Assembly: GCF_963506605.1 (NCBI RefSeq)
Contig: NC_083282.1
Location: 59,892,001 to 59,956,000 of the forward strand
Length of the DNA: 64,000 nt
From: Zootoca vivipara
Lineage: Eukaryota
Direction of reading: 5' to 3'
Shown here: positions 11,750 to 64,000 of the stretch, piece by piece
Position numbering within the stretch: the stretch's first letter is position 1
Layout of the letters: every line of letters starts with the position of its first letter
The notes under the pieces: model-generated
The model's input: the letters and a program-made list of their open reading frames with translations, nothing else
The model's database searches: none
Told to the model about the DNA's origin: nothing
Translations under genes and position numbers: made by a program

Positions 11750-14249
11750 ATTTGCGTGTAGATAGTAAACTACAAAGACAGTACTGTAAGATATAAAATG
11801 GTACGATAAGGGCAAGAATCATTTTAACTTTGATATAATACTTTCTAAATCTTTTGTTACCTTTCTGTCAGACAGGTCTTTGGAAAAAGAACATCTTTGT
11901 TCCCATGCAACTCTTGCAAAGTGGAAAGATTTTCCACGTCTCATAAAAACAGCTGTTTGGTGGTGTTTCCTTGTTTTGAATTGTTTTTGCTAACCCTGTA
12001 GCTCAGAAAAATGTACTTTAAAAAAATGAAAACGAAGGGAGAAATATAGCTCAAAAGAGGAAGACAGCTGACTTGACACATGACAAAATTTCAGGAGAAG
12101 AATTAACAGAAGTATATGATGAAGAGCTTTTGTTAAACTATGGCTCTTAAGACATCAGCAGATTTAAAACGCACAAGAGACTGGAATGTGTGATATTGAG
12201 TCATTAGAGATCGCTACAATAGCATTCGCCATAAGCCACTGTTGTTCTGATCTATGTCAGATGGACAGAATTATCTGGCTTGGGTAGTGTCACCACTTAC
12301 AATTTATGTAAAATGTAATATGGAACAAAATTGGAATGTGATGAGGAAGAGGTAGCTAGCCTATAATTATTAAACTGGCTTGCAGAAGGAGTGGAACTGG
12401 GTGGCTCTTAATTTTCCTTCCTCCAACATTTTGATCTCTTGGAGGTACAAATAAGAAATGTCATGAATTGTCAGGTTTAAAAAATGGGGATTCCCAAATG
12501 ATGAGCTATTAACTTGTAAGAGGGGGAAATTGGCTTTCTGTTGCCAGGGTATGCTTTATAGCAGTCACCATGGGATGAATAGTTATCTGTTTCCACTCAA
12601 AAATCAGTAACAGGAAGCCTTGTGTTGTGATAGACAGTAATATTTTTTCCTATTTCCTTTTCAAGTTTATCCAGTAATTTTAGCATGATGCGTGTTCCAG
12701 TGGGAGTTGAAATATTCTGTTCACCTCTCTTCCAGTGTATCTAAGATCTGATTCACACATGCATATACTTCACTACAAGGCAATACTCTTAAGTCTTGTT
12801 GCTCTGACTCTCAAGAGAATGTGTGAAGCACCTTTATTGGGCAGTATTGTATTGCAGCTACCAGGTGGTGGGTGGTGATAATAATATAAATACTTTTCAT
12901 TATGTTTTATCTGTTTCAGATAATGGAAGTCATAAATGGATGCTGCCACCATCAAGTGGCAAATGTAGTGTTGAATTGCTAAACTTCCCATTCAGCAAGC
13001 AGTCATTAAGGCTCATATTTTGGATTGCCATGGAGCTGAGTAAAGCATTCTTGTGTCTGCATCCTTTAGAAGAACTTGCGTTTTACTATTCTGTGCTGTA
13101 AGAGGCCTTATTATAATGCACACTCTTCTCTTTTTCGTTTGAAGATGAGGTGCCAGATTAATTCCCCTAACAGGTTTAAGGGTAGGCTGCCAAAGTCACT
13201 CTGTCCATTTATCCCAGGCATCTTCGACCCAGCTCTTTCAGCAAGTTTGGCAAAAGTTACATAAACTCATGGTGATGGGCCTTTGAGGTATGTTTTGGAA
13301 GCTTCTGTGCAGTGGAATGCCATGCTAGTTTCTCAGAAGTGGAAGAAAATATTTCAGCTACTAGGTTAGTGGGACATGGGAGCACAGAGCCTGTTCTTAC
13401 CTTGCTGTACTTCCAACCCTCAATTACAGATGCTGCAGATGCAGATGAGCTTCACCACTTCAGACCACAGATGTGGGGTCGCATTCTCACATGCTTCTTT
13501 GTGCTGCTAAAAACCAACAGCAAATAAAACATCAGCACTGCAGACAGAGGGCTGGGAGAGAACCTTTTCTCTGCACGTGGCTAGTTTCAGAGACTTGTGC
13601 TTGTTTGAGTTTCTTTTGCCCTTTAACCCCCCCCTCCCCCCAAATATCTAGCTGGGAGAGGGGGGTGTTTGGAAGAGCAGGGAACATTCAAAACTGGTAT
13701 CTTCCATCTGAAGTACATACAGTCCATGCCATTTTATTACCTAATGGTGCTGGAGGTGTAGGCCCAGCCTCATTCTGTGCAAACTTTAAATGACATCTGA
13801 TTCCTCCTTGCAGTCCTCCAAAAGCCATGTGTGGGTGAGGATTGCAGGAGCTTGCTGAGCAAAGACAGGGGACCAACCTGTCAAGCTGCAAAGAGAGCCA
13901 CTTGTAATTTAAGCAAGTAATTTAGGACTCGCAATTTTAGAGTGTGTGGGAAAGTGCCATGTTCCAATGGCCAGAAAACATTGCAGACTTTTGTTTTCAA
14001 ATACTCCTTGGGTAGCATGTAAACCATTTTTTTGTTCGGTACAAGACATGAACTCATGCCTCCTGGTTCCTAGTTTGCTACTGTGAAGGTCTTGCTGATA
14101 ATAAAAAGCTACGGACTGATGCAAAAAAGAATACTGAGTACCTTTGATTCTGTCTCCCAGGGAGTGTGTGTTAGGGAATGAGGGAGGGAGGGAAGGAGCT
14201 TCTTCTTGCATGGCTTATAGTATCATCTACCAATGCAAAGCTTCATTAG

Positions 14250-14900
14250 AGTAAATATCTAAACAGTTTAAAGAATATAAAAACCAGACTGAGCAGAACC
14301 GTTAAGATCCACAGTTAAAATGCACAATATTACCCACCCATTAAAACAATCCAGCAATTTCAAGAGGCAGATACAGAGCAAGAATTCATGGGTGTGCCTG
14401 TGTAAATAGGTCCATCTTCAAAAGTAAGTGGAATGCCAGTATGTTGCCTCTTGCATTTCAACTGGAAGGGCATTCCACAACATTGGTGCAACAATGGAAA
14501 AAGCTCACCTCTGAGTTACTATGAGCTGATAATCATCAGGCCATGGCAAGGCTAATTGTCAGCCTTCTTAATGCCATTACAAGGCTGCAGAGATGAAGTT
14601 GGTATTTCAGGTAACCTTGCCCAGAGTTGATTAGGGCTTTATATTCAGGTAACAAAGCTTAAAAACTGGCTCAGTCACTAATAGGCAGCCAGTTCGGATC
14701 TGCAGCACTGCCATGATTTTTGACTGGTAAGGAGCAGAACTCAGCACCTGAACTGTAGCATTCTGCACCAGCTGCAGCCTCTGAGCCAGCCTTAAGGGAA
14801 GCTCCACACAGAGCATATTATAGTTGTCTAAACGTGAAGTTACCAGCGCATGAATCACTGTGGACACAAACTCTGGACACCTCCCCAGAGACTGTATTAA
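14250..14900 (-). mobile_element. Degenerate L2-clade LINE fragment (ORF2 C-terminus and 3' end)
   Basis: Translation VIHALVTSRLDNYNMLCVELPLRLAQRLQLVQNA matches the L2 ORF2 C-terminal motif (HALVTSRLDYCN...LQLVQNAAAR); boundaries approximate. Confidence 0.8.
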
Positions 14901-15969
14901 CCGTGGCATCAAAATCCACATGAAGGCGAATGGTTTTTCCCTCTCAAAGTGTCTGGTAGACCTGTCACAGCACGCCATTTGTTCATACATTTTTTGCAGC
15001 GCATATATGAAAGCTGCAGTAAACTATCTGCCTTTCCACCATCATTAAGCATGCAGCCCATCTGGTCTGTTTATGCAGAACACTGTATTTTGACTTAAGG
15101 ACTAAAGTATGCCTTTTGCTTTGAAGCAGCAACTACCGTACTTTGCTGAAGGGTATTGCCTGTAACTCTTGGGCATGCCTGGGGTGTGTGTATGTCTATG
15201 TGGTGGGGGGACAGGGGGAGAGGGTTGGTTGGTTTAAACAATTCCGTACATCTATTCCCATTACATTTCATGTGTCCCTGATTCCAGTCTAGCTGTGTAA
15301 AGTAAAAATTGCCAGTCTGGAAGGTTGTTGGCTTGTACTGTATTGTGTAAAGAGCGAGACTCTGATTGGAACTTCCCAAGTTCTTGTTGCTGTTTGAAGA
15401 TGGATGCAAAGTTTAGATTGCAAGCAAAAATGAATTTGAGCCTTCTGGTTTCAAGTGTACTTAAGCAATTATTGCCAGACCTTTGACAGCCTGTTCTAAG
15501 ACATTCTGAATTTGTCCATGAGAGACTAAATTAGAATATCACAATATATCTTTTTTGTTCGCAGACTAGGCCAGTAAAAAGTTTGAACATATACAATGAG
15601 TATTTTTATTTAGGTATGTGTTTATAAAATATCATACCACCCAATAACCAAGGTTTTTCAGATAATTTACAGTAACCATCTAAAACAAAAAGGCAAATGA
15701 AATACTGTACAAAAAGGAAGTCTAAAACAGAATAAAAACAACAGTTTAGAACCAAAATAATAACTAAAAGATTACAGTAGGGTATTCGAAAAGCACAAAA
15801 AGTTATTAAGATTAGAAATGGTGGGAAAGGTATTCTCTGGGGAGGGAATTCATGAACTAGGGTGCCACTACTGGAAAGTAACAGGTAGGTAGCCGTGTTG
15901 GTCTGAGTCGAAGCAAAATAAAAAAATTCCTTCAGTAGCACCTTAAAGACCAACTAAGTTTATATTTTG

Positions 15970-16007
15970 GTATGAGCTTTCGTGTGCATGCACACTTCTT
16001 CAGATAC
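15970..16007 (-). ncRNA. Minimal type I hammerhead ribozyme motif (PLE type)
   Basis: Minus strand GUAU-CUGAAGA-A-GUGUG(CAUG)CACAC-GAAA-GC-UC^AUAC: complete core, stem I GUAU/AUAC, stem II, palindromic AGCU stem III; predicted cut between 15974 and 15973. Confidence 0.8.
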
Positions 16008-16043
16008 ATCTGAAGAAGTGTGCATGCACACGAAAGCTCATAC
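16008..16043 (+). ncRNA. Inverted copy of the hammerhead motif with shortened stem I
   Basis: AU-CUGAAGAAGUGUGCAUGCACACGAAAGCUC^AUAC; only 2 bp of stem I remain. Confidence 0.6.
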
Positions 16044-16953
16044 CAAAATATAAACTACTGGAAAGGTCCTCTTTTGTAGCCAACTGCCTCACCTAACTGG
16101 ATGAGGCCGCATGGCAAGGGCCTCTGAAGAGGATGTTAAAGTCTCAGAAGGAATATATGCGAGGAGGCTATCCTTCAGGTAAGATAGTTCCAAGTCATTT
16201 AGGACTTCAAAGGTTAACACCAACATTTTGAATCAGGCCTAGAAAGGATCTGGAAGCCAGTGCAGATGACATTCACTGGCATAATATGGACATAGACCAC
16301 TTTCAAAGGCAGCCACACATATAATGTGTTGCAGTAATCCAAACAGCAGGCTAGCAAAGCACAGATAACTTTAGCAATTCTGTCTTCTTCAGATAGCGTT
16401 GTTGTTGGTATGGTGTCTTAAGTTGATAAAAGACAAAAACTTCAAATAGGGAAAAAGTCCTGGCCATATTTTAGTCTTTTACTTTATTACTCACTCTGAA
16501 ATATTTTCTTTAAATATAGACTTAAAGAGCTTGGCACGAATGACCCAACCAATAAAAATAGAAATGTGACTTTTTCTCAAGGTTTTCTAATGGGAAAATG
16601 AAAGCTGCTTATTTTCAGTCCTGCTTATTTTCAATTGAAGTTATTCCCCACCCAACCCCAGTCTATTAGCAATGGCTTGATAATTCCCCTGACAGGTCTG
16701 CGGTATTTAGGTTGGATTCCAGTATTACCAAAGAGGTGTATTTGCTGCTTGCTGTGACTGGCTACCATCCTGCTACTGTAGTGTTTGTATGGCAGAGGTA
16801 CTATGTTTGGCTGTGTCAGCAGCTCAGAAGGGAAGGGGCAGTAGCCTATGCAATCTTGGCAGCCCCATGTGATCAGAATATTACTGGAGCAGCATGAGCA
16901 CTTAGGCACAGTACTGCATGAATATGACTTTAGCCTCTTCAGTGTGTGTAAAT

Positions 16954-17091
16954 CAGGGATGGGGAACTTGTGGCTCTGCAGATGTTGGTGGAATCCAAGT
17001 ACCATCAGGTCTAGCCAGCATGGTTCATGGCCAGGAAAGATGGGAATTGTAGTCCTACGATATCTGGAGGGCCGTAGGTTCCCTATTCCTG
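16954..17091. mobile_element. Palindromic hAT-Charlie-like MITE (older copy)
   Basis: cagggatggggaac ... gttccctattcctg ends; core gatgggaattgtagtcc...atctggagggcc shared with 32040-32175. Confidence 0.7.
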
Positions 17092-18744
17092 ATGTGGGCA
17101 GTCTTAAGTCATGGGTGAGGAACCTCAGACCTGGTGGCCAGTCTCAGACCCAGCTTTCGCTGTCCCTTGGGGTGCTCTCCAGCCTTGTTACACACTCTCC
17201 TTGAATGTTTTGCTTCACTTGAATGTATCTTTGAACTCAGGTTTGTCTGGATGGAGGATAGAGGTATGGATGTAAACTTGTTCTATCCTTGCTTGCCTCT
17301 GGCCTCACCCACCACTGGCATGTGATCACTGAGAGTGACTTCGGGAGTTGATGTTCAGCCAAGAAGCTACTAAATTTGTAAGGAACTCAGTTGAGACAGA
17401 GTACAAGGGTGAGCTGTGAGTACTCACAAGGTGAGCTGTAATGACACTTGATTTGTAGTATCTGAGCCCCAAATGCATAGGAAAATTTCTGCTCCTAGGC
17501 TGGACCATAAATGCCCATAAATCATAGAACAGCCCTCTGTCACATTTTCACATCTCTGTCATTGCTGTGGCAGGTGTTTCACTGAACTATGTAAGTTGTA
17601 ATAGCACCAGGTTTATGAATTTATCATATCATACTATCTTACTTAGAAGCTTCTGGTGTTGCATGATAACCTGACATTCTTAGCTTTTCTTACAAAATTC
17701 TGGGGTGTCTGTCTACCATTGTGGTTCAGAGCCATCTACAGTACTTGAAGATGATAACACTGAGCTTTCCTTCTCTCTTGTCTCTGCCATTCTTAAAACT
17801 TTAAATATTGATATTTAAGAGAGATATGGTTGAAGCCTTTTTGATGTTACATTTTAGGATTACTGAATAAAATCTCTCTGGAAGCATGTATAATGACCTT
17901 TCTGAATGCAAAGGCCAGTTACTGAAATTTCGTACCTTCTGCCTTCTGTTTATCTCTCCCTAGACTGTTTCCTCTTTCTTATATTGGATAGTGTTGAACT
18001 TTAGAGAGATATTTAAATGAAAGAGCAGGGAACAAGGAAGAATGGTTCAGCAGATCAGAAGAATCTTTATTTACATCAGCCACTAGCCATAGTAAATGGC
18101 TCAGCCTGTACAGATGGGTGGGAGGTTTTGAAAGCAGGTGTCAACACCACCTTGGTGGCTACCTAGACAAAGTATGACTTATTAAAAATAATGTAAAACA
18201 AGAAGTAAGTCAGTGTGATATGTGTAAGTTGATGGGTGGATAAAGCTGCCAAGAAAGGTGAAATGAAAGCCAGGAGGTTCAGCCCCCTGTTTCTTAGCAT
18301 TTATTTCCTTTGTTTAAAGGATGTTCAAAATAGAATGCTTTACAGATTGTGCCAGCAAATAGTTCTTTTTGTGTGTGTTTTTGTAGGTTCTTTTTTTACT
18401 TCAGCTAGCTGGGAGTTTAGTCATGTTCCTCCTTTTGAAGAAAGTTCCTTGGAAATCATCAGGCAGTGGAGCTCTGAATGTCAGTGCCGTAAAAAGCACA
18501 GGAATCCAAGGTTATATGTGAGGTGCATATATATTAGAAGGGGTGGTGGTGAACTCCAGGCGATTGCCAGGTTTCTGTATCAGTAGGTGAATCTACAACC
18601 CGGTTGGGTGTGCCTAGGAGTGCTGTTAGACAAAACCGAATAAAAATGGTGGTCCCAGAATCTAGCATCACTTTTCCTGTGGCATTTCTAGGGTAGCAGA
18701 GCAAATGGCACCATGTTGGCTGCCAATTTAACAGATTTAAAAAG

Positions 18745-21628: not shown

Positions 21629-24549
21629 CTGTAAGCTCATTGGGTTCATGTGAGGCTCAAAGCAAGCAAACTTGACTCATCAGCTCTTGACAATTGTTTC
21701 TTAGGAGTGGAGTATTGCACACACTCAACGGAATCTCTTTTTGCAGCTGTCTGATGCTCAGCTTAACAAATCTATACCTAATATTAGGCTCTCACTGTCT
21801 CTCTTTCCCAACCCACTCTCTTCAGTTAGAGGCAGCAGCCTGTCAAGGTCTCTTCAGATCCCTCCAGCCCTCCCATTGTCAAATGCACCCTTGTCATCCT
21901 CTGAATAGCATTTCCACTTGATTTTAAAGTAGCTTTCTGTCAGCTGTGATAGACTAAGAATTTTAGTGACAACTCCATCAATTGGGCCACCAGGATCAGA
22001 AACATCCCTATCTTGGCAGTTGATATGTGTGCATATCTGCAAGTGGAGGCTGCTAGGTAATATCTCCCGTTGTAAGTGACTGTGGCGGGTGTGGGTGAGT
22101 GGTGCCGAAAATTTGAACTGTGAATACAGAGGGGGGGCTGTAGCATGGCCTTTCTTTGCTGTCTTGATCTTACATGCAAGCTGAAGAAGGAGAAAGCCAC
22201 CTTAAAATTTGGTGCCTGCTCACCTTTCAAAATGTATTGGGTACTGAATGCACCAGCATAATGATGCTTCACTAATGTCTTGCATTACACTGTTCTAATC
22301 AGAGTTCCCAGTTGCTGTAATGTAAGTTTTTAAATACAAGAACATGTGGTCCACATTTTATGCGTTTACAATGTGTTAGCATCAATATGCAGTTGACTCC
22401 ACTGCATTAAGGGTACTGGGAATTAAAGCTTTGTGAGGGGGTCTCAAAACAACTCTTGGTATAAGATTGCTTTAAATGTGAGGTATAGATGTGACTTCAG
22501 CTCCATCCATGAATGGGAGGAAGGAGCCCTTATGTTTGCAGAGTCCTAGTTAAGATTCAAGCCATAATAAATAAAAACGATTCCAATAACATAAATCACA
22601 AATTGTAATCAGCGAAATGACAAACAGCCTGTGAGCAGTAACCAAGTAGTGGAAAATCTTAAGTCAGCCTGTGTCAACCTGGTGTGCTCCAGATGTTTTG
22701 GACTATAACTCTCTTCATCCTCTGCCAACACAGTTTAGAGATAAAAATGCACTAAGTTTTGTTTGTTCCCTTCTTGACTAAAGATAATCATTTTTGAAAG
22801 GTGACAAATTTAGTACTTCTCCATATGGTCTGTGGCAGGATATATGCAGACCTGGCATGACAGTGGATGGAAAAGGAGATTCATAGCGGAATATATTTAA
22901 TATATTTATTGAGGAATGTGTACTTTGCTTTTCAAAGCAGCAAAAAGCCTCCACAAAGCAGCTTGCAATACTAAACTAGCCATCAACACAGTTTAAAAAC
23001 AATTAAAATTCATTACTGCAAACAAAGGCTTGCATTCAGTGTAGCACTAAGTATCTGTCCTACTGTCAGAACAAGGATTTCTGTTTGTGCAATGGGACTC
23101 GCCACCCCGTTCCCTCTATGTGCTCCCTAAATCTGTTTCCCCCACCACCACCAATCCTCCAGAACAGATTGGAAGAGGGACTCCCATTGGGAAGATGGGA
23201 CAATGCTACATTGGATACAGATTGATAGTATAATAAAACAAACAGATTTAATTCTTTTGTCTTTATTCTCTCCATTGTAGCATCCATGAAGCATGGTGGC
23301 ATGATATTTCACCAGAAGGCTCCATGCCTGCCACTCTGTAATTAGGACTATTGACTTCATATAGGAGCTTGTGTTTGCACCGTAGGAAGGGGAAATGAAA
23401 GGTCTGGCCCTTCTTCGCCCCAAAGGAATGGAAGAGGAAAGGGCTACTGGGAATTTTTCCACCTTGTAATGCATCCTGTGTTGAAAACTTTGCAGTTCTG
23501 TGCTATGAGAAGCTGTGTGTTAAACTATATATTTTGGCAGCTGAAGCTGACATTTAGTCATGTGCGCCTGTTCTCTCTGAACGGTGTGATTTCTTGTGAC
23601 CACCTGTTTCCACAGTGTTCGCAAGCAGTCCTTCCTTTATGTCAAAGTAGCTCTATTGTGTGTTTTTTTCTTAATCAGCACAACAAAAGAATGTTGTCTC
23701 TCTTCCACCACTACCCCTCTCTACCACCAGTTTCCTTTCCAAGAAAAAGAAAGAAAGCATGACTTAGGTAGGCAGCTATCCTTCCTGTCCCACAGCCATG
23801 TTGAAGTAAGTGCCAATAACCTCTGTCCATTTAGAGGAGACACAGCCACCAATGAACTTGTGCTTTGTTATACTGAGCAACGGGTATAACGTGCTGTTTC
23901 CTCTTCTTCTGTCTGTTTTGGCACACATGCCTTAAATTTCCTGTAAATGTACACTAGCAGGATAAAAATGAAATTCTATGTGGCCGAATGCTAGAAGTCC
24001 TCTACCTGGTAACTGCAGGCAGGCAAAAGAGCTGGGGCTACTCCCTAAAGTGTTTTGCAAGAGGAGCTCAATGCTATGTAGTCCTTGAAGTAATAAAAAG
24101 GATTCAAAATATGGGCCTTCCCAGGCAAGTGACTTTGTGGTGGTAACAGCAGCAGCAGCAGCAGGAGGAGGAGCAGCAGCAGGAGTGTGGAGTAAATGCT
24201 CAGGTACTACAGTATGTAGTTGCCAGCCTTCCAACAGCAGTGTTTTGTCACTGACCACATTGTGTTTCTTGCAATTTAGAGCGTTAGATGGGCTATAATA
24301 ATGTGAGGATCATTCATGCCCACTGAGGTGTGCTTATGGTGAATGTCATCCATTCCTTCTCTCCCATTGAATGCCTGAAGTGGGAGAGATGGTCATGTAA
24401 AGCCCAACAACTTGGAGGTTTGGGTGCCAAAACAATCTTGGCCTGTTCTCATAGGTAAGAGGTCAGGCTTACCGTAATCACATGGAAGACAAACTCCCCC
24501 TTCTGGTAAGCTGAATTGGCACTGCAGGATGAGCTGAAAGTTGGGTTAA

Positions 24550-24748
24550 AAGGTAAAGGGAAAGGGACCCCTGACCATTAGGTCCAGTCGTGACCGACTC
24601 TGGGGTTGCGCGCTCATCTCGCATTATTGGCCGAGGGAGCCGGCGTATAGCTTCCAGGTCATGTGGCCAGCATGACAAAGCCGCTTCTGGCAAACCAGAG
24701 CAGCACATGGAAACGCCGTTTACCTTCCCGCTGTAGCGTTTATCTACT
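24550..24748 (-). mobile_element. Sauria SINE, 5'-truncated
   Basis: Reverse complement of the 3' half of 49135-49486, including the (ACCTTT)-type tail; 15-bp TSD tgaaagttgg(g/a)ttaa at 24535-49 / 24749-63. Confidence 0.9.
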
Positions 24749-27155: not shown

Positions 27156-27692
27156 CAGTGGGGCGCTGTGGGTTAAACCACAGAGTCTAGGGCTTGCTGA
27201 TCAGAAGGTCGACGGTTCGAATCCCTGCAACGGGGTGAGCTCCCGTTGCTCGGTCCCAGCTCCTGCCCACCTAGCAGTTCGAAAGCACATCAAAGTACAA
27301 GTAGATAAATAGGGACCCCTCTGTCGGGAAGGTAAACGGCGTTTCCGTGTGCTGCTCTGGTTTGCCAGAAGCAGCTTTGTCATGCTGGCCACATGACCCG
27401 GAAGCTGTCTGCGGACAAACGCTGGCTCCCTCGGCCTATAGAGCGAGATGAGCACCGCAACCCCAGAGTCGGACACGACTGGACCTGACGGTCAGGGGCC
27501 CTTTTACCTTTACCTCAGGTTAAGTACTTAATTAGTTCCGGAAGTCCGTACTTAACCTGAAGCGTACTTAACCTGAAGCGAACTTTCCCATGGAAAGTAA
27601 TGGAAAGTGGATCAATCCGTTCCAGAAGGGTCCACGGAGTACTTAACTTGAAAGTACTCAACCTGAAGCGTACTTAACCCGAAGTATGACTG
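27156..27692. mobile_element. Tigger-like MITE with its left TIR split by a Sauria SINE
   Basis: TA-CAGT at 27154-59, resumes tacctcaggttaagtac at 27511; right TIR gtacttaacccgaagtatgactg-TA at about 27670-27694. Confidence 0.75.
27160..27510 (+). mobile_element. Sauria SINE, near full length
   Basis: gcgctgtgggttaaaccacagag head, ggttcgaatccc B-box, 3' ggtcagggg..tttacctttacct tail. Confidence 0.92.
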
Positions 27693-46859: not shown

Positions 46860-46955
46860 CGTGCATCTGAAGAAGTGTGCATGCACACGAAAGCTCATAC
46901 CAAAATATAAACTTAGTTGGTCTTTAAGGTGCTACTGAAGGAATTTTTTTATTTT
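46860..46955 (+). mobile_element. PLE terminal fragment carrying a hammerhead core
   Basis: 13-bp TSD gcttcagtatatg (46847-59 / 46956-68); CTGAAGA(46867)AGTGTGCATGCACACGAAAGCTC^ATAC; matches the reverse complement of about 15910-16005. Confidence 0.82.
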
Positions 46956-47222
46956 GCTTCAGTATATGAGTTCAGCTAAGGAGAACATTGCTTTTCAGTG
47001 TTTGGGGTGCTGGGGTGACGTGGGTGAGGGGTTGGTGAGGTTGGTTGCTAGCAAGGATGATTCTTCACTCATCAGCTACTCTCACACCTTTTGCTGTTAA
47101 AACTGGACCTCCGGGCCCACTTTTTCTATATTTCTGGGATGGTTCCATGTTTTAGACACATTGAACTGGTGCCGCAGCTTCTAGTTTGGCCTTCAAAGCA
47201 CTAGGTCTGCCATCCGTTAAAC

Positions 47223-47950: not shown

Positions 47951-48307
47951 CAGTGGTACCTTGGTTTAAGAACAGCTTAGTTTATGAACAACTTGGATTA
48001 AGAACGCTGCAATCCTGGAAGTAGGTGTTTTGCTTTGTGAACTTTGCCTTGGAATAAGAACACGTTTCGCTTCCTGTTGAGTGTGTTCCATTTTTGTAAA
48101 TTGAGTCCCCCGCTGCTATGGGAAAGCACACCTTGGTTTAAGAACACTTTGGTTAAAAAAAACTAAGTCTCTAAGGTGCTACTGAAAGGAATTTTTTTAT
48201 TTTGTTTCGACTACGTCAGACCAACATGGCTACCTACATGTAACTAGAGCTTTGTTTTAAGAACGGACTTTCGGAACGGATTAAATTCGTAAACCAAGGT
48301 ACCACTG
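47951..48307. mobile_element. Tigger/pogo-like MITE containing a nested PLE fragment
   Basis: 18-bp perfect TIR cagtggtaccttggttta, TA flanks. Confidence 0.9.
48161..48249 (+). mobile_element. PLE 3' tail fragment (hammerhead not included)
   Basis: ctaaggtgctactgaaaggaatttttttattttg..tcagaccaacatggctacctac is the reverse complement of about 15880-15950. Confidence 0.75.
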
Positions 48308-49134: not shown

Positions 49135-49486
49135 CAGGGGCACAGGTGGCGCTGTGGGTTAAACCACAGAGCCTAGGGCTTGCCGATCATAAGGTTGGTG
49201 GTTCAAATCCCCGTGACAAGGTGAGCTCCTGTTGTTCAGCCCCAGCTCATGTCAACCTAGCAGTTCGAAAGCACGTCAAAGTGCAAGTAGATAAATAGGT
49301 ACCGCTACAGTGGGAAGGTAAACAGCGTTTCTGTGTGCTGCTCTGGTTCGCCAAAAGCGGCTTTGTCATGCTGGCCACATGACCTGGAAGCTGTACGCCG
49401 GCTCCCTCGGCCAATAATGCGAGATGAACGCCGCAACCCCAGAGTCTGTCACGACTGGACCTAATGGTCAGGGGTCCCTTTACCTT
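49135..49486 (+). mobile_element. Sauria SINE, full length
   Basis: Head ggggcacaggtggcgctgtgggttaaacc, tail ggggtccctttacctt; 14-bp TSD ttacatttttgcta (49121-34 / 49487-500). Confidence 0.93.
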
Positions 49487-52400
49487 TTACATTTTTGCTA
49501 GTGACAAGCATTTGCTGCTTATCTAAGCAGAATGAATGGCACCAGGCTGTCCTACACACTGGAATTGCTAGCAAGGTGAAGTCAGCAAATTTTGAGGCAA
49601 GGCTGTTATGCTTTACCAAAAGTGACAAAGCCCTTCCTTCTTCTCACAAGTAATAGCAGAGAGGGAGACATAGAAAACAGGACCGGGGTGGGGGGGTGAG
49701 AGTCAAACCTGCCCCCATGCTTACTGTAATACTCCATATGACTGATTATCCAAACATCATCTGTTTCATCTCTTGTCACCTTCTCTTGTTCTGTGGCCAT
49801 GCCATATGTGTATGGCACCCCACACACTGTTAAGTGTTTCACAGCTAACACTGAGCAGATCCCTATAGAATAGGGACATGGTCTTTGTGTCTATATATTC
49901 AGGTAACCTTTAGGGCCTGACCTGCTTTTGGAAGTGCCACATTCAACTCCAGAAATTGCCCAGAGAAGGAATTGTTGTATTTTCAATAGAACACGTTCTG
50001 GTGAGTGGTCTGTAGTCCTTCCTGTTTTGCCCAAGACAAAGCCAGCTGGCCTGTGGCTGCCTGAGACAAAAGCCCACTTGGGATGATCTCTCTCTTCCCC
50101 AACCTTGTCCCCGAAAGACTCCTTTGGGCCTGAAGCCAGGCCCTTCACAGTTCCTCTAATGGGCTGTCATCTCTCAATGGAGACATTCTGTGCTGGCTTT
50201 CAGACTGTGTGTAAAACCTACTAATTTTAGCTCATAAGCGCTTCAGTGATCTCGTGGACTAAGAAAGAATGCTAAAACACTAGTTACCTCTTTGTCTCTG
50301 CGCAGGAAAATACGATCCGTTGCTTTTAAAATGGGAGATGGTTTTAGAAGCAAGCAAATAATTAGCCAATTGTCTGGAGAGAAATCTTTCTCGCAAGACT
50401 TCACTTATAATGCACAGGCTACAATAAAGATACATTTTGGAACTGAGAGAACTGTTGAAGAAAGCAAAGGCTATACCAAGAAAAAAGAACGTGGCAATAA
50501 ATGACACAGCTGTGTCCCCTTTTACTCCAAAAAGACTTAAATATTAGTGAAGCTATTTAAGTATTAGTGAAATTGTGGGACAGTACTGCATGAACCACAC
50601 TGCTGTAATTCCAAGCATCACAGGGGAATTTGTATAAAAGGTACTGCTTGGGACCTTATGTCCCCTCAACAGAAATAACTTCATAGTATATCCTTTGCGT
50701 AAGCAGAGTATTCCATGTGAAGGCATGTGGCTGCTAGCTCGTACTGTAGCTTTGCTTTAATGAGAAGTTGCATTGAGCTGTTGTAGAGCCTCAGGAAGTT
50801 TTGCTTTTTTATGAGTCCTCTACAGTATTGGCTTTTTCTTTAGGTTGTGTGTGTTAATAGCTAGTTTTTCTAGGTGGGGGGGGGGAGCAAAATAGTGATT
50901 GAGTGTCATAATATTTTCTATAGCCCTTCTGGGTCCCCACAAAGCAATAGTAGATAAAGTAAAAGTACAAATGCTTCAAAAATGCTTAGGGAATTAATAT
51001 AAAACTCATCAAACTGTTCATGCAAAAGTTCTCTTTACTAGTACTAGCCATTCAGTATAGCATGACAGTTTTTAGACAATGCTGGGTTGTTCAGCAGTTA
51101 GCATAATATAATGTAAGAATGTACAGTGGGAGGCTTCTATGGTTAGCATTAAATTGTTTAAGCTAACTGCCATTATTTTGCTTCATGAATTTAGGAAGTG
51201 TGGTGTGTTTGTGAGGAGAAAACTCCTAGACTTGGGCGTTGGGTACCACTTTAAAATTTTATAGGCTGGAAAATGTTGAGCCTGCAAATATTCTGATGAT
51301 TGTAGTTCATGTTCAGGGGACACAGAGGCATTTTGTCATGAAATTACATAGTAATATTGCCCTTTTGAATCTTGTCAATTCAATTTGTATTACTTTAGAC
51401 TTTTGTAAACTTTTGTTTGCTGGGTTTTATAAGGTAACACAAATGCGAGATTCCAAAATTTACATTCACTTGAAATGTTCCAGATAGCCTTACTTGTTAA
51501 TAGATGAATTCATCTCTCTGCAGTCATTTGCACTAAGTACTGGGAAGCATTATTTCATTGAATGGGGAGAAGAGAGAAGTGTCTTTAAAGTTTGTTGAGT
51601 AAGGCTTGGCAGGCAAACCCTATAAAATAAGAATTTGATCTTGCTTATTCTGTTTTTAAATTGGTTAAAAGTAATTAATTGCAGTTTTCTTTTCTTTTTT
51701 TAGTCCCTTGGAGGGAGTTTGGGAAGACCTCTAGCAGGTGCTGTCAATACTGATGAGAGATCTTATATGCCAAGGTATGGAGCGTTTTGTTTTGTTTTTA
51801 AAAAACAATAATACTGGTATCTACATTAGTACATCTGCTCTGACTGGAGGTGTCTTGGATTGAACCTGTGACTTCTGCATGCAGGGCATATGACATTGCA
51901 TGCGTTGAGGAAGCAAGAGAGAGCCCCATGCATTTCAAAATTTCTATTCTCTCCACCTCCTGCAGTATGTTTTTAAACAATGTGCTTTCTGCCATTATCA
52001 AAAGTTAACACAAACTATCCTTCCACAAAAGCATTACTACAACATCCCATTTTTTGCTTAGGTTATTGTTATGCATCAAGGTTTTCAATATTTTGACATC
52101 CTCCTGTTTAAATGTGGGTGGGTGGAATAGATATTTCCTGATGTTCGAACACATCAGCTTGCATCCTCTGAATATTTAGATGCACCTTTGCATCTAACAC
52201 AGCTTATTCCTAAGTTAACAGTGAATGAAAGGTGAAGAATGGGTACAGCCAAATCAAACTGCCTTTACGCAGTTCAAACTACATTATGCATGTACCCACG
52301 TATGAGGATGGCAAGGCAAAGAATTTCAGGGTGTCTCTTGGGATGTCCAGTGGCACCGAGGTGGGGTTTTCTTTTGACAGTCTGCCAGGACACTCCACTG

Positions 52401-60784: not shown

Positions 60785-61211
60785 TGTGAGGGGCAAGGGG
60801 TATCGCGAAGCCCCTCCCCTCCTGAGTTCCAGCCCAGCCCAGAGCACGACTGAGAGCAGGGAGAGCTCCAGCTCCAGCGGGGAAACAGGAAGTGGGATCC
60901 AAGGCTCTGGCAGGGTAGAAGAGCCAGCGTCCCAGGTGGGACAGGAAGGAGGAAAGAGGGGGGGAGACCCATCCCCCCAACTCCGGAACTTCGCAGAAAG
61001 CATCGGGGGAAGAGGATGGGGCTCCCCAAGTTGTTATGCTGGCGCAAGACGCGCCAAAAGCCATTCGGAGGTTCTGATGAAAGCTGAAAAGATGTGTCTC
61101 TGTAAATAGCTCTACCTTCAGCACTGTAAATACGCAGCACCAATAAAAAGATAAAATGCAGAGCGGTGGAGAGTCGTTACTCTGAAGTAGTCCCATCCGA
61201 CCACTGTGACA
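60785..61211 (+). repeat. 5' LTR (427 bp)
   Basis: TGT...ACA termini, purine-rich U3, AATAAA at 61142-47; followed after 2 nt by the putative PBS. Confidence 0.8.
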
Positions 61212-61213
61212 GC

Positions 61214-61224
61214 AACCTCCGAAT
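61214..61224 (+). promoter_or_regulatory. Self-priming primer-binding site (non-tRNA)
   Basis: AACCTCCGAAT is the exact reverse complement of ATTCGGAGGTT at 61063-73 within the LTR; no TGG-type tRNA PBS is present. Confidence 0.8.
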
Positions 61225-61253
61225 CTTTTTTGGGCTACTTTGGAGTTGCCGGG

Positions 61254-62485
61254 ATGAGCGCGCCAGAAGCGGAGACATGGCGGCAGATCGCGGAGAAAGC
61301 CCAGCAGGACCTGCAGGAACTGGCGTTGCAGGCACAGGGGGAATTAAAGGCGGCGAAGCAAGAAACGGAGAAAATTAAAGAGGACAGGCACAACCTTGCT
61401 GAACAGGTGAGAGCACTTCAGGACAAAGAGCAGCAGTTAAGGGCGGTAGCCGTGGACCTCCAAAACAAGTTGGATGCAGAGAGAAACAAGGGAGGAGGGG
61501 GAGCCCAACTCCAAGTGCTGCCAGGAAGGAGAGCAGGGACCCTAGTAAGCAAGTTCAATGGAGACCCAAGGGAATATCATGGCTTTGAGACTGAGATCGT
61601 GTATGCTCTTGAGCTGCACCATGATGAGTTCCCTGATGATGGGCACAGGGTAGCGTTTATTGTGGAACACCTTACCGGGGCAGCCAGGGAGTGGCTCAGA
61701 CCGTTAATCGCGACAAAAAATCCTTGCATGAAGAATGTCAAACTATTTTTAGAGGCTTTAAAAACTATGTATGCGTCCGATAGCCATATGGACCAGACCA
61801 AAGAGGAACTGCATAATTTAAGACAGAGAACAATGACAGTTCGCGAATATTGGGCGAGATTCACCATGCTGGTGCACAGACTGGGGTGGGAACTGCGCTC
61901 GCCTCCGATGGAAGCGGCGTTCTACCTGGGGTTGAATGAGGATGTGAAAGATGAGCTCTCGAGAGGTCCAAAGCCCAGTAATATGGATCAGCTGAGCAAA
62001 GCGGCTCTGGCGGTGGGGGTGAGACAGGAATCCCGGTGGAACGACAAGCAAGCAACGCGCGCAAAGCGGGCTTGGTTCCCACAGTCGCAGGAGAAGCCAC
62101 TCCCCCAACAGCCATCTCACGCCATGCCAGGGGCCAGCCGAGACCAGGAACCCATGCAAATTGATAGCGCGCGCGGGGGGGGGGGGCTTTTCAAACCCCA
62201 GCGGCGCCAAGACGCAGGGAAGGAAGAGGCGGGAATTGCTTTCTCTGCAACTCCCCTCAGCATCTCGTCAGAGACTGCCCACATCGCAGGGAATGGCAAG
62301 GAAAGGCGGGAACGGTTGTGCCCTCCCCCACTGACGCAGCACCACAGCAGGGAAACGAGACAGCCTGGCTGCAGGAGACAAGGGGCAGCAGCCAGGCGCA
62401 GTCAGCACACAACAGCCCCAACCCACCCGCCCGCACAGCGAGGAGCAGCGCCAGCCCACCCCCCCCAGAGCAGGGGTGGTTCTAG
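61254..62485 (+). CDS. gag: Gag (retrotransposon capsid plus CCHC nucleocapsid), frameshifted at the G12 run 62175-62186
   Basis: ATG at 61254; coiled-coil N-terminus, KFNGDP..LTGAAREW, LRQRTMTVREY, FYLGLNEDVKDEL, EPMQID; zinc knuckle CFLCNSPQHLVRDC (from 62237) lies in the -1 frame, ending TAG 62483-85. Confidence 0.88.
62350..62419 (+). promoter_or_regulatory. -1 programmed ribosomal frameshift signal (gag to pol)
   Basis: Slippery heptamer G GGA AAC 62350-56 in the CCHC frame, 6-nt spacer, 10-bp stem GCCTGGCTGC (62363-72) / GCAGCCAGGC (62388-97); pol lies in the -1 frame. Confidence 0.8.
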
Positions 62486-64000
62486 AAGTGACGCTAACGC
62501 TCCCTAATGGGTATCCCCCGACGGTCCTCGCGTTAATCGATTCGGGGGCGTCGGCCAACTTCTTTTCGAGAAACTTTGCAGAAGCGCACCAGATCCAACC
62601 TCTGCAGCTGGATTTTCCCCTGCACGTCTCCACCATTGACGGCAGGGAGTTGCTGGGAGGGGCCATCACCCACCAGACCCCCCCCATGAGAATGACGGTG
62701 GGGAGACACTCTGAGACACTGGCATTCAACGTCACCACCATCTCAGACCCCCCCATCGTCTTGGGCATGAGCTGGCTGGCGTGCCATGACCCCTCCATCA
62801 GTTGGCACCAGAGATGCATCACGTTTGGCTCAGACTATTGTCTGGAGCATTGCATGCAACACCAACCAGGGGAGGGGCCTCCAATAGCCACGGTGGCCAC
62901 CATGCACGTCAAGGGGGGTGAGACGATACCCAAGCAGTACTGGGACCTGCAGGAGGTCTTCAGTGAAGCGGAATCCGACCACCTGCCCCCGCACAGATCA
63001 TTTGACTGCCACATCAACCTGGTGCCGGGGGCCACGCTACCCCCAGCCAAGCTGTACTCCATGTCAGATCAGGAGCTGGAGGATCTGCGTGCGTTTATAG
63101 ACAAGAACCTCAAGAGGGGGTTCATCAGAGAAAGCAAGGCAGCAGGGGGCAGCCCGGTCTTCTGGGTGGACAAGAAAGACACGCAACAGCGCCGTCTTGT
63201 GGTGGATTTTAGACGGCTGAACAACATGACAGAACCGGTGGCTTTCCCAATGCCCAGAGTGGACGATCTGCTGACAGCGGCACGCAGGGGCAAGATCTTC
63301 ACCAAGCTTGACCTGAGGGGGGCGTACAACTTGATCAGGATCCGGGAAGGCGATGAGTGGAAAACCACGATGTTCACGCCTCTGGGCTCTTTTGAATATC
63401 TGGTGATGCCCTTCAGTTTGCAAGGGGGCTCAGCATGCTTCCAGGCCTTCATGCACCACGTCCTGGGGTCCCTTCTCTTCAAGAAATGCCTGGTCTTCTT
63501 GGATGACATCCTTATTTACTCCAATGACCCAGAGCAGCATGTGAAGGATGTCAGAGAGGTGTTGCAGCGCCTGAAGGAGCACCACCTGTATGTGAAACTG
63601 GAGAAGTGTAAGTTTCACACCAAAGAGGTGGACTTCCTGGGCTACAAACTGTCAGACACGGGGCTGGCGATGGACAAGGACAAGGTGCAGGCCATCCTGG
63701 ACTGGCACAGCCCCAGGACGCGCAAGGATGCCCAACGCCTACTAGGCTTCGCCAACTTCTACAGGAAGTTCATCAAGAACTTCTCTCGCGTTACGGCTCC
63801 CATCACGGACTGTCTGAGAGGCAAGCAGAAGTTCAGGTGGACACAGGAGGCGCAAGCAGCGTTCAAAAGCCTCAAGAGGGTGTTCGCTTCCGACCAGAAC
63901 CTGTTCCACGTGGTGCAGGATGCGCCCCTACGCGTTGAGACCGATGCTTCAGACAGAGCTTTGGGAGCGATCCTGTTGCAACTGGATGCCAACAGAGAAT
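62350..64000 (+). CDS. pol: Pol polyprotein (aspartic protease, reverse transcriptase, start of RNase H), open to the window end
   Basis: No stop codon in frame on manual translation; ALIDSGA (DSG 62539-47), KLDLRGAY, YLVMPFSL, VFLDDILIYS (FLDD 63496-507), LLGFANFYRKFI, VETDASD (ETDASD 63937-54); missing from the ORF track because it runs off the edge. Confidence 0.95.

What the first reader, a model, noticed from the sequence alone, without database searches (positions are those of the whole stretch)
15957..16056. Back-to-back hammerhead ribozymes forming a perfect 49-bp palindrome
Seen: 15957-16005 and 16008-16056 are exact reverse complements with a 2-nt spacer, inside a 12-bp TSD. Each strand therefore encodes a CUGAAGA-stem II-GAAA-GCUC^ core; the minus copy has the full GUAU/AUAC stem I. 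Stem II (GTGTGCATGCACAC) and stem III (AGCT) are themselves palindromic. Known: minimal type I hammerheads of PLEs have a palindromic stem III and are thought to cleave as dimers, and PLE insertions often carry inverted pLTR pieces. Inference: in either transcription direction the antisense arm is made first, so the RNA should fold into a 49-bp hairpin that locks the ribozyme off. That hairpin could be an ADAR or Dicer substrate yielding small RNAs against the PLE family, and the DNA could extrude a cruciform.
Basis: partly seen in the sequence, partly recalled or inferred. Interest (0 to 1): 0.7.

Follow-up and report, generated by a model that had tools for sequence, protein, structure and literature searches.

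The report
Twin-primed Penelope stub at transcription start
This mirror-image pair of ribozyme motifs is one of at least 1,549 similar junctions left by a young Penelope-like jumping gene in this genome, likely formed when both cut DNA strands copied the front end of the element's RNA and the two copies were joined head to head, so it is probably a footprint of insertion and not a regulatory hairpin.

Summary
The 49-bp palindrome, 2-nt spacer and 12-bp TSD are real. They are the centre of a 175-bp insertion: a long arm (hammerhead plus 'tail') and a short inverted arm from a young RT + GIY-YIG Penelope-like element (Neptune/Nematis-type linker). The genome holds 1,549 exact head-to-head junctions and 18,022 exact hammerhead 30-mers. 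The anatomy is stereotyped. In 118 of 127 pairs exactly one arm carries the tail. Outer ends fall at two sites about 40 nt apart. Inner ends pile up 1-8 nt before the core (40 of 97 arms), about 30 nt behind a TATA box, and not at the cleavage site (1 of 97). The tail-less arm is more often the longer one (17:6), which argues against simple fold-back of the tail-bearing copy. Best reading (0.6): each nicked target strand primes on the same uncleaved RNA, both cDNAs run off its 5' end, and end-joining fuses them. A hybrid fold-back route remains open (0.25). The hairpin would lock the ribozyme, but one RNA run shows no transcription of the flanks. The structure is known; I found no paper giving this mechanism. 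This scan reached the same reading on other DNA, including other genomes.

The parts
15867..15878 (+). Left copy of the 12-bp target-site duplication (its last 2 nt also fit the element's usual 3' end)
   Evidence: TSDs of 10-17 bp in 38 of 49 sister loci
15879..15915 (-). 'Tail' of the long arm, about +89 to +125 (counting C of CUGAAGA as +1); the outer end is the inferred priming site 2
   Evidence: 47 of 49 long arms reach +118 or further
15916..16007 (-). Long (sense) arm body, -4 to +88: hammerhead, then leader down to the U-rich run at inferred priming site 1
   Evidence: 99% match to window 46862-46960; family copies
15970..16007 (-). Minimal type I hammerhead with complete 4-bp stem I, self-complementary stem II (15982-15995) and palindromic helix III; predicted cut 15974/15973
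   Evidence: sequence; feature list in PMC4209133; no Rfam hammerhead hit
16004..16009 (.). Head-to-head junction: minus arm reaches -5, plus arm -2, 1-nt microhomology at 16008, 2 unpaired nt; lies at the inferred RNA 5' end
16008..16056 (+). Short inverted arm, -2 to +47: second hammerhead core with only 2 bp of stem I; ends earlier than most (8 of 49 short arms end at or before +73) on a 3-nt microhomology with the target
16054..16065 (+). Right copy of the target-site duplication
   Evidence: junction present in unitigs of X4 and X8
46860..46963 (+). Second copy of the same subfamily in the window: single, tail-less, begins just before the core, 13-bp TSD

Best explanation
The palindrome is the centre of a short Penelope-like retrotransposon insertion, likely made when both strands of a staggered target cut primed reverse transcription on the uncleaved front end of the element's RNA and the two copies were then likely joined head to head by end-joining repair. 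Shown: TSD, two arms, a parent element with RT + GIY-YIG, the one-tail rule, two outer-end sites, and inner ends clustered at -8..-1 behind a TATA box. Inferred steps: (1) the pLTR promoter starts RNA at about -8..-4, at or just before the first base of hammerhead stem I; (2) the protein cuts both strands about 12-13 nt apart; (3) one strand primes at the tail's end (about +127), the other about 40 nt upstream (about +88; here unusually at +47); (4) both cDNAs run towards the RNA 5' end on what is usually one RNA, the upstream primer leading; (5) the two 3' overhangs are joined through 1-7-nt microhomology or short templated inserts. Two hammerheads face each other only because the ribozyme is the first thing in the RNA. 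Any read-through transcript would fold into a hairpin that silences it, as a side effect.
For: 1,549 exact junctions and 18,022 exact cores. A natural copy has a 901-aa ORF with RVT_1 and GIY-YIG above cut-off; many such frames are open. Exactly one tail in 118 of 127 pairs, or 89 of 97 without the 30 BLAST-selected loci. Outer ends are bimodal: 46 of 97 at +77..+95 and 51 of 97 at +122..+135. This matches the two RT start sites that delimit the tail, and the cutting and extension of both strands, shown in vitro for anole Poseidon (PMC11167929). Inner ends: 40 of 97 in -8..-1, 8 of 97 in -60..-9, 1 of 97 at the ribozyme cut. A TATA-like box lies about 30 nt upstream in all ten upstream variants listed, which were chosen for having one. 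After arms that stop at -4 the next base is G in 29 of 41, against 23 of 86 at six other stop positions, as a copied cap would give. The tail-less arm is longer in 17 pairs, the tail arm in 6, and 5 are within 3 nt (28 pairs). Five young pairs have the tail-less arm longer by 246-751 nt, with near-identical overlaps and 12-15-bp TSDs. One insertion inside a 13-bp TSD has arms from two subfamilies (L032). 36 of 50 junctions carry inserts, 19 of them with 6 or more nt copied from the arms, and 8 of 50 have an unpaired centre of 2 nt or less, which is tight for a fold-back loop.
Against: The transcription start is not shown: three RNA-seq runs give no pile-up of starts at -8..-4 (ordinary paired libraries may not show one). 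18 of the 29 G's follow TCA, GAA or TCT and may simply be templated pieces of the arms. Arms are nearly always from one template (6 of 127 rows differ at the main diagnostic site, only L032 convincingly), and 7 of 19 long pairs have inner ends within 36 nt at arbitrary positions. Both facts fit fold-back copying as well as two cDNAs on one RNA. The in vitro work is on a Poseidon element, not this clade. End statistics come from the first 17-43 Mb of contig C1, mostly one subfamily.
Confidence: 0.6

Rival explanations
1. Hybrid fold-back. Both strands prime, but only one cDNA (usually the tail-less one) reaches the RNA end; it snaps back, copies itself, and the copy anneals to the short cDNA from the other strand.
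For: Explains near-identical arms, shared rare variants (4 pairs flagged), the one-tail rule, the 17:6 bias and coincident inner ends in 7 of 19 long pairs. Self-annealing of 3' overhangs is proposed for inverted duplications beside L1 insertions (bioRxiv 2024.12.14.628481, passages).
Against: 8 of 50 junctions, this one included, leave 2 or fewer unpaired nt. L032 has arms of two subfamilies. Loops of hundreds of nt would be needed in both directions.
Confidence: 0.25
2. One-ended self-priming (Arkhipova et al. 2013, on an antisense template, or fold-back of the tail-bearing cDNA), with the tail made by endonuclease resolution.
For: Proposed in PMC3846280 to explain head-to-head palindromes (passages); tail ascribed to EN resolution in PMC8557442; arms concordant.
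Against: Predicts that one given arm always contains the other's inner end; both directions occur, with the tail-less arm longer 17:6, by hundreds of nt in young copies. Single insertions end at either site with clean TSDs. Later central deletions would have to rescue the model.
Confidence: 0.07
3. The fixed centre is an RT stop caused by the folded or dimeric hammerhead (or bound protein), not the RNA's 5' end.
For: The peak at -4 is the first base of stem I; two monomers cofold at -32.2 against -7.6 kcal/mol each; no start pile-up in RNA-seq.
Against: RT would meet the structure from its 3' side, so stops should fall at or inside +34..+9, where they are fewer. TATA spacing and the excess G at -5 fit a capped start. 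31 of 97 arms read on beyond -20.
Confidence: 0.06
4. One reading: a locus whose hairpin RNA locks the ribozyme and feeds Dicer or ADAR to silence the family.
For: The fold is predicted. RNA reads with opposite-strand joints near the element's start exist in three runs, so some palindromic copies may be transcribed. Small RNAs against PLEs are reported in a rotifer (PMC3846280, passages).
Against: Unique flanks show depth 0 to about 1 in run X21. No editing signature is separable from subfamily variation. Nothing marks this copy among 1,549. No small-RNA data were examined.
Confidence: 0.03
5. Assembly artefact.
For: Hairpins trouble assemblers; no listed contig bridges the centre.
Against: Clean TSD; junction unitigs in two other samples; varied junction sequences across loci.
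Confidence: 0.01

Closest known systems
EN+ Penelope-like element insertions with inverted pLTR, one-sided 30-40-bp tail and TSD (PMC3846280; PMC8557442 Fig. 2)
   Same: Head-to-head inverted pLTR piece, palindrome at the junction, tail on one arm only, TSD, TATA plus Inr-like motif in the pLTR.
   Different: Here the whole insertion is two pLTR stubs with no ORF, and the centre is fixed to within about 8 nt in a large share of copies. The published explanation is self-priming on an antisense template; the asymmetry data here favour priming from both strands.
Anole Poseidon (PAc) in vitro (PMC11167929)
   Same: Both target strands cut and extended, two internal RT start sites that delimit the tail, uncleaved RNA as template, hammerhead near the ORF start.
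   Different: This family has a C-x4-C-x2-C linker (Neptune/Nematis type). In PAc both strands used the same start sites, whereas here the genome shows one site per strand. In the two of four parts read, the paper does not explain inverted insertions.
LINE-1 twin priming (search listing; passages of bioRxiv 2024.12.14.628481; textbook details recalled)
   Same: Second target strand primes internally on the same RNA, giving an inversion inside a TSD with microhomology at the joint.
   Different: L1 inversions are mostly non-overlapping and second priming is at variable sites (recalled). Here the two copies overlap fully and the second site is largely fixed, so a palindrome results.
Minimal type I hammerheads of metazoan PLEs (PMC4209133) and non-LTR retrozymes (bioRxiv 2026.07.22.740005)
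   Same: Core, extra base at 9/10.1, G10.1-C11.1, palindromic helix III, predicted dimer dependence.
   Different: Retrozymes are direct tandem repeats; these two motifs are on opposite strands and cannot form a dimer within one transcript.

Membership tests
EN+ Penelope-like element | Parent ORF with RT and C-terminal GIY-YIG endonuclease | tested here: met
   L200 901-aa ORF: RVT_1 46.8 bits, GIY-YIG 23.7 bits, both above cut-off; same leader as the window arm
EN+ Penelope-like element | pLTRs from partial tandems, inverted 5'-truncated copy | tested here: met
   3,030-bp tandem units and inverted arms in L200-L219
EN+ Penelope-like element | 30-40-bp tail on one end and a TSD | tested here: met
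   118 of 127 pairs with one tail; TSD of 10-17 bp in 38 of 49; 12 bp here
Neptune/Nematis clade | CX2-5CxxC linker before GIY-YIG | tested here: met
   C-x4-C-x2-C in the translation; definition from PMC8557442
Neptune/Nematis clade | RT phylogeny placing it in Neptune rather than Nematis | not tested
   No tree built; no named reference proteins were fetched
Minimal type I PLE hammerhead | CUGANGA and GAAA core, NUH site, extra base at 9/10.1, G10.1-C11.1, palindromic helix III | tested here: met
   Sequence, fold, against the list in PMC4209133
Minimal type I PLE hammerhead | Match to an Rfam hammerhead model | tested here: not met
   No hammerhead family among 24 hits at E up to 10; the top hits are miRNA-precursor hairpin models below their thresholds. 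Minimal motifs may fall outside those models (inference).
Minimal type I PLE hammerhead | Self-cleavage (as dimer or protein-assisted) | not testable with these tools
   Needs an assay; 1 of 97 arms starts at the cut site
Non-LTR retrozyme | Direct tandem repeats each with a hammerhead | tested here: not met
   The two motifs are inverted and there is no tandem here
miRNA or siRNA precursor locus | Transcription and processing into small RNAs | tested here: inconclusive
   Flanks almost without reads in one RNA run; no small-RNA library examined
Twin-primed insertion | Each arm independently copied from RNA from its own target strand | tested here: inconclusive
   One-tail rule, two-way asymmetry and L032 support it; arm identity and coincident inner ends leave hybrid fold-back open

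The most novel reading that the evidence does not exclude
Twin priming is the normal insertion route of endonuclease-bearing Penelope-like elements. One protein complex places the two target 3' ends on two fixed sites of one RNA, 40 nt apart. This single geometry would explain the one-sided tail, the inverted pLTR and these mini-palindromes, which would be strong-stop cDNAs that map a capped start at the first base of the hammerhead. The ribozyme would then act as a 5' leader that removes a roughly 35-nt capped piece, not as the maker of template ends.
Probability: 0.4. Interest if true: 0.7.

Novelty: new member of a known kind. Interest (0 to 1): 0.48.

Why it matters
The locus itself is ordinary. 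The family matters because the origin of inverted pLTRs and one-sided tails in Penelope-like elements is still open in the papers I read: self-priming on an antisense template was proposed in 2013, and the 2024 in vitro study leaves the later steps unvalidated. Thousands of young copies with many intact frames give counts that separate the models and name the positions to test: two priming sites, a start at -8..-4, no use of the ribozyme cut. It also means that a vertebrate genome carries at least 1,549 short near-perfect palindromes made by one element, a possible source of hairpin RNA and local instability that was not tested here.

Tried and rejected
Rfam scan: no hammerhead hit; the miRNA-precursor hits are generic hairpin matches below threshold and were rejected. 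Ribozyme cleavage as the source of the fixed end: rejected, 1 of 97 arms starts at +29..+33. A mobile palindromic unit copied whole: rejected, because junction sequences differ between loci and the outer ends and TSDs are new each time. Apparent two-template arms at L160 and L188 were largely artefacts of aligning to another subfamily: arm against arm, L188 differs by one gap and L160 by about 2%, not conclusive. Rows L127, L185 and L212 look like alignment-edge or separate-insertion effects, and L058 and L149 are single changes; none was counted as two-template evidence. No listed holder of the locus was on record as RNA ('no RNA holder listed'). RNA-seq laid on a full unit showed no start pile-up at the Inr-like site or the cut site. 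No empty-site joint was among the rows shown, but 260 joints were not shown, so polymorphism is undecided. A genome-wide count of the base before the arm start was not obtained; the G statistic rests on 222 distinct arms in fetched loci, some selected for being palindromic. No host gene was found around the locus: 5 of the 6 window ORFs scanned (of 90 listed) had no Pfam hit and one was a Ty3/Gypsy gag. Literature searches for this mechanism found nothing relevant: 'Penelope + twin priming + inverted' 2 papers with unrelated titles, not read; 'Penelope + head-to-head + palindrome' only PMC3846280 and a plant review; 'Penelope-like + TPRT + dimer + cryo-EM' 0; 'Penelope + squamate + Neptune + inverted' 1. 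Subscription journals are mostly outside the library, and supplements (for example Fig. S2 of PMC11167929) were not read and may bear on novelty.

Full report
Observation. Window 15957-16005 and 16008-16056 are exact reverse complements around AC, and a 12-bp direct repeat lies at 15867-15878 and 16054-16065. The 100-nt strand folds at -83 kcal/mol, and none of 200 shuffles comes near. The TSD encloses 175 bp: the minus-strand arm runs on through a U-rich stretch to 15879. I number from the C of CUGAAGA (+1; 16003 on minus, 16010 on plus). The long arm is -5..+125 and the short arm -2..+47, with 1 nt of microhomology at the centre and 3 nt shared between the short arm and the right TSD. Unitigs from two samples not flagged as the source hold the outer junctions at the depth of their neighbours (X4: 11722-15903 and 16027-17323; X8: 16028-17323). 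The two junctions carry the element on opposite strands, so the inversion is real, though no listed contig bridges the centre.

The ribozyme motif. Both strands read CUGAAGA, an extra A, a G-C-closed self-complementary stem II, GAAA, a palindromic AGCU helix III and the UC cut site. These are the features that PMC4209133 lists for minimal PLE hammerheads (passages). Only the minus copy has a 4-bp stem I. Rfam gave no hammerhead hit. The monomer folds weakly (-7.6, z -1.2) and two monomers cofold at -32.2. Cleavage was not tested.

The family. Upstream of long copies lies the end of a GIY-YIG ORF. A natural 3,030-bp tandem unit encodes 901 aa with RVT_1 and GIY-YIG domains and a C-x4-C-x2-C linker, the motif that PMC8557442 gives for Neptune and Nematis and not for Penelope/Poseidon. 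Eighteen of the 150 matches listed have the full 925-codon open frame, so the family is young. The ORF's first ATG lies at about +134, just behind the tail.

Outer ends. Among 97 arms from the first 100 matches of one subfamily on C1, 46 end at +77..+95 and 51 at +122..+135 (3 matches not fetched). In 49 of the first 50 listed junctions, 47 long arms reach +118 or further, 39 short arms end at +77..+100, 8 end at or before +73, and 38 have a TSD of 10-17 bp (the simple TSD search misses some). Of 127 head-to-head pairs in all loci held, 118 have the tail on exactly one arm, 5 on neither and 4 on both, 3 of these being internal tandem copies. Without the 30 BLAST-selected loci the count is 89 of 97. 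Single, non-inverted copies end at either site with clean TSDs, as at window 46860. PMC11167929 (parts 1 and 2 of 4 read) shows that a related protein cuts and extends both strands, starts at two internal sites that delimit the tail, and uses uncleaved RNA. I infer that in vivo one strand takes each site.

Inner ends. Forty of the 97 arms start within -8..-1, 8 within -60..-9, 24 at +1..+20, 2 at +21..+39 (1 at the cut site) and 23 further upstream than -60. That is 32-fold more per base than just upstream. Upstream variants carry a TATA-like box about 30 nt before TCAGT, TCACT or CTAGT at -9..-5. After arms that stop at -4, the next base is G in 29 of 41, against 23 of 86 at six other stop positions (p 5e-6). 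A copied cap would do this, but 18 of the 29 could be templated pieces of the arms. I infer a transcription start at -8..-4, so the stubs are run-off copies of the RNA's front end. RNA-seq did not confirm it: three runs show no start pile-up there, and most reads on the leader run on into unrelated sequence, as expected for stubs inside host transcripts.

How the centre is made. Of 50 junctions (49 plus this one), 36 carry inserts, 19 of them with 6 or more nt copied from the arms; 9 show microhomology and 5 are blunt. Long pairs show 1-7-nt microhomology or repeated inserts. This resembles polymerase-theta-type joining (recalled, not tested). If the tail-bearing cDNA folded back, it should always be the longer arm. 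In 28 pairs from the set the tail-less arm is longer in 17, the tail arm in 6, and 5 are within 3 nt. L102, L156, L171, L174 and L175 have tail-less arms 246-751 nt longer, with overlaps differing by at most 1 base and TSDs of 12-15 bp. L032 joins arms of two subfamilies inside a 13-bp TSD. Eight of 50 centres leave 2 or fewer unpaired nt.

Against a clean two-cDNA reading. Arms nearly always match: 89 of 127 pairs are identical over +1..+76, and only 6 rows differ at site +42, where random pairing would give about half (my arithmetic). Seven of the 19 long pairs listed have inner ends within 36 nt of each other at arbitrary places, where independent truncation would give roughly one (my estimate). 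So the two arms usually share a template and a stopping point. One RNA copied twice, the second enzyme following the first, explains this. So does a hybrid in which the leading cDNA snaps back and its copy lands on the other short cDNA. I give these 0.6 and 0.25.

Function at this locus. In run X21 (6% of the run read, tissue not given) the unique flanks between 8 and 24 kb have depth 0 to about 1, with peaks at repeats. No host gene was identified. A>G places on the element (31-40 per run) are matched by T>C and C>T places, so no editing signal can be separated from subfamily variation. Opposite-strand joints near the element's start occur in RNA; they may come from transcribed palindromic copies or from library template switching. 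Nothing singles this copy out.

Comparison and novelty. Inverted pLTRs with junction palindromes and one-sided tails are described in PMC3846280 and PMC8557442 (passages); the former proposes self-priming on an antisense template. bioRxiv 2026.07.22.740005 (part 1 of 5 read) treats tandem retrozymes. L1 twin priming was seen in a search listing and in passages of bioRxiv 2024.12.14.628481. My searches found no paper that applies twin priming to PLEs. This scan's notes hold 17 similar findings in at least 10 genomes and one on the extra G in this genome; I had formed the reading before the look-up, and those notes are not independent evidence. Verdict: a real, ordinary member of a known structural class, whose family statistics make an open mechanistic question testable. 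Interest 0.48.

Noticed in passing
window 46860-46963 (+): Single tail-less stub of the same subfamily with a 13-bp TSD; 50 nt identical to the short arm.
   Followed up: yes
window 48167-48247 (+): Fragment of a related subfamily (downstream leader plus tail, no hammerhead), apparently inside another repeat.
   Followed up: no
window 11645-11750 (-): Older, diverged copy of the same leader with a damaged core.
   Followed up: no
window 61191-62507 (+): 438-codon frame with Retrotrans_gag and Ty3_capsid hits, in a GC-rich stretch: a Ty3/Gypsy LTR element.
   Followed up: partly
L076:820-3242: Four tandem 598-bp units, 99.9% identical: an internal-deletion derivative with promoter, hammerhead and tail; begins and ends with tail sequence. 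Fits the non-LTR retrozyme definition of bioRxiv 2026.07.22.740005.
   Followed up: partly
L205, L213, L206, L216 (whole loci): Near-perfect palindromes of 4-5.4 kb with identical arms and 13-16-bp TSDs; unusually long for a vertebrate genome and candidates for instability or assembly checks.
   Followed up: partly
L077:2391-3373: A two-subfamily palindrome (L032/L033) is itself repeated as a 324-bp perfect inverted duplication about 500 bp away.
   Followed up: no
L165, L201, L210, L219 junctions: Short direct repeats of the arm end (four copies of 10 nt in L165), like repeated re-priming at a template end.
   Followed up: partly
window 24548-24738, 27162-27511, 49148-49494: Three copies of a common SINE-like repeat (Sauria SINE by recall), 86-96% alike.
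   Followed up: no
L200:6600-6900: RNA run X23 has a depth peak over the 3' end of the endonuclease region, higher than over the leader.
   Followed up: no
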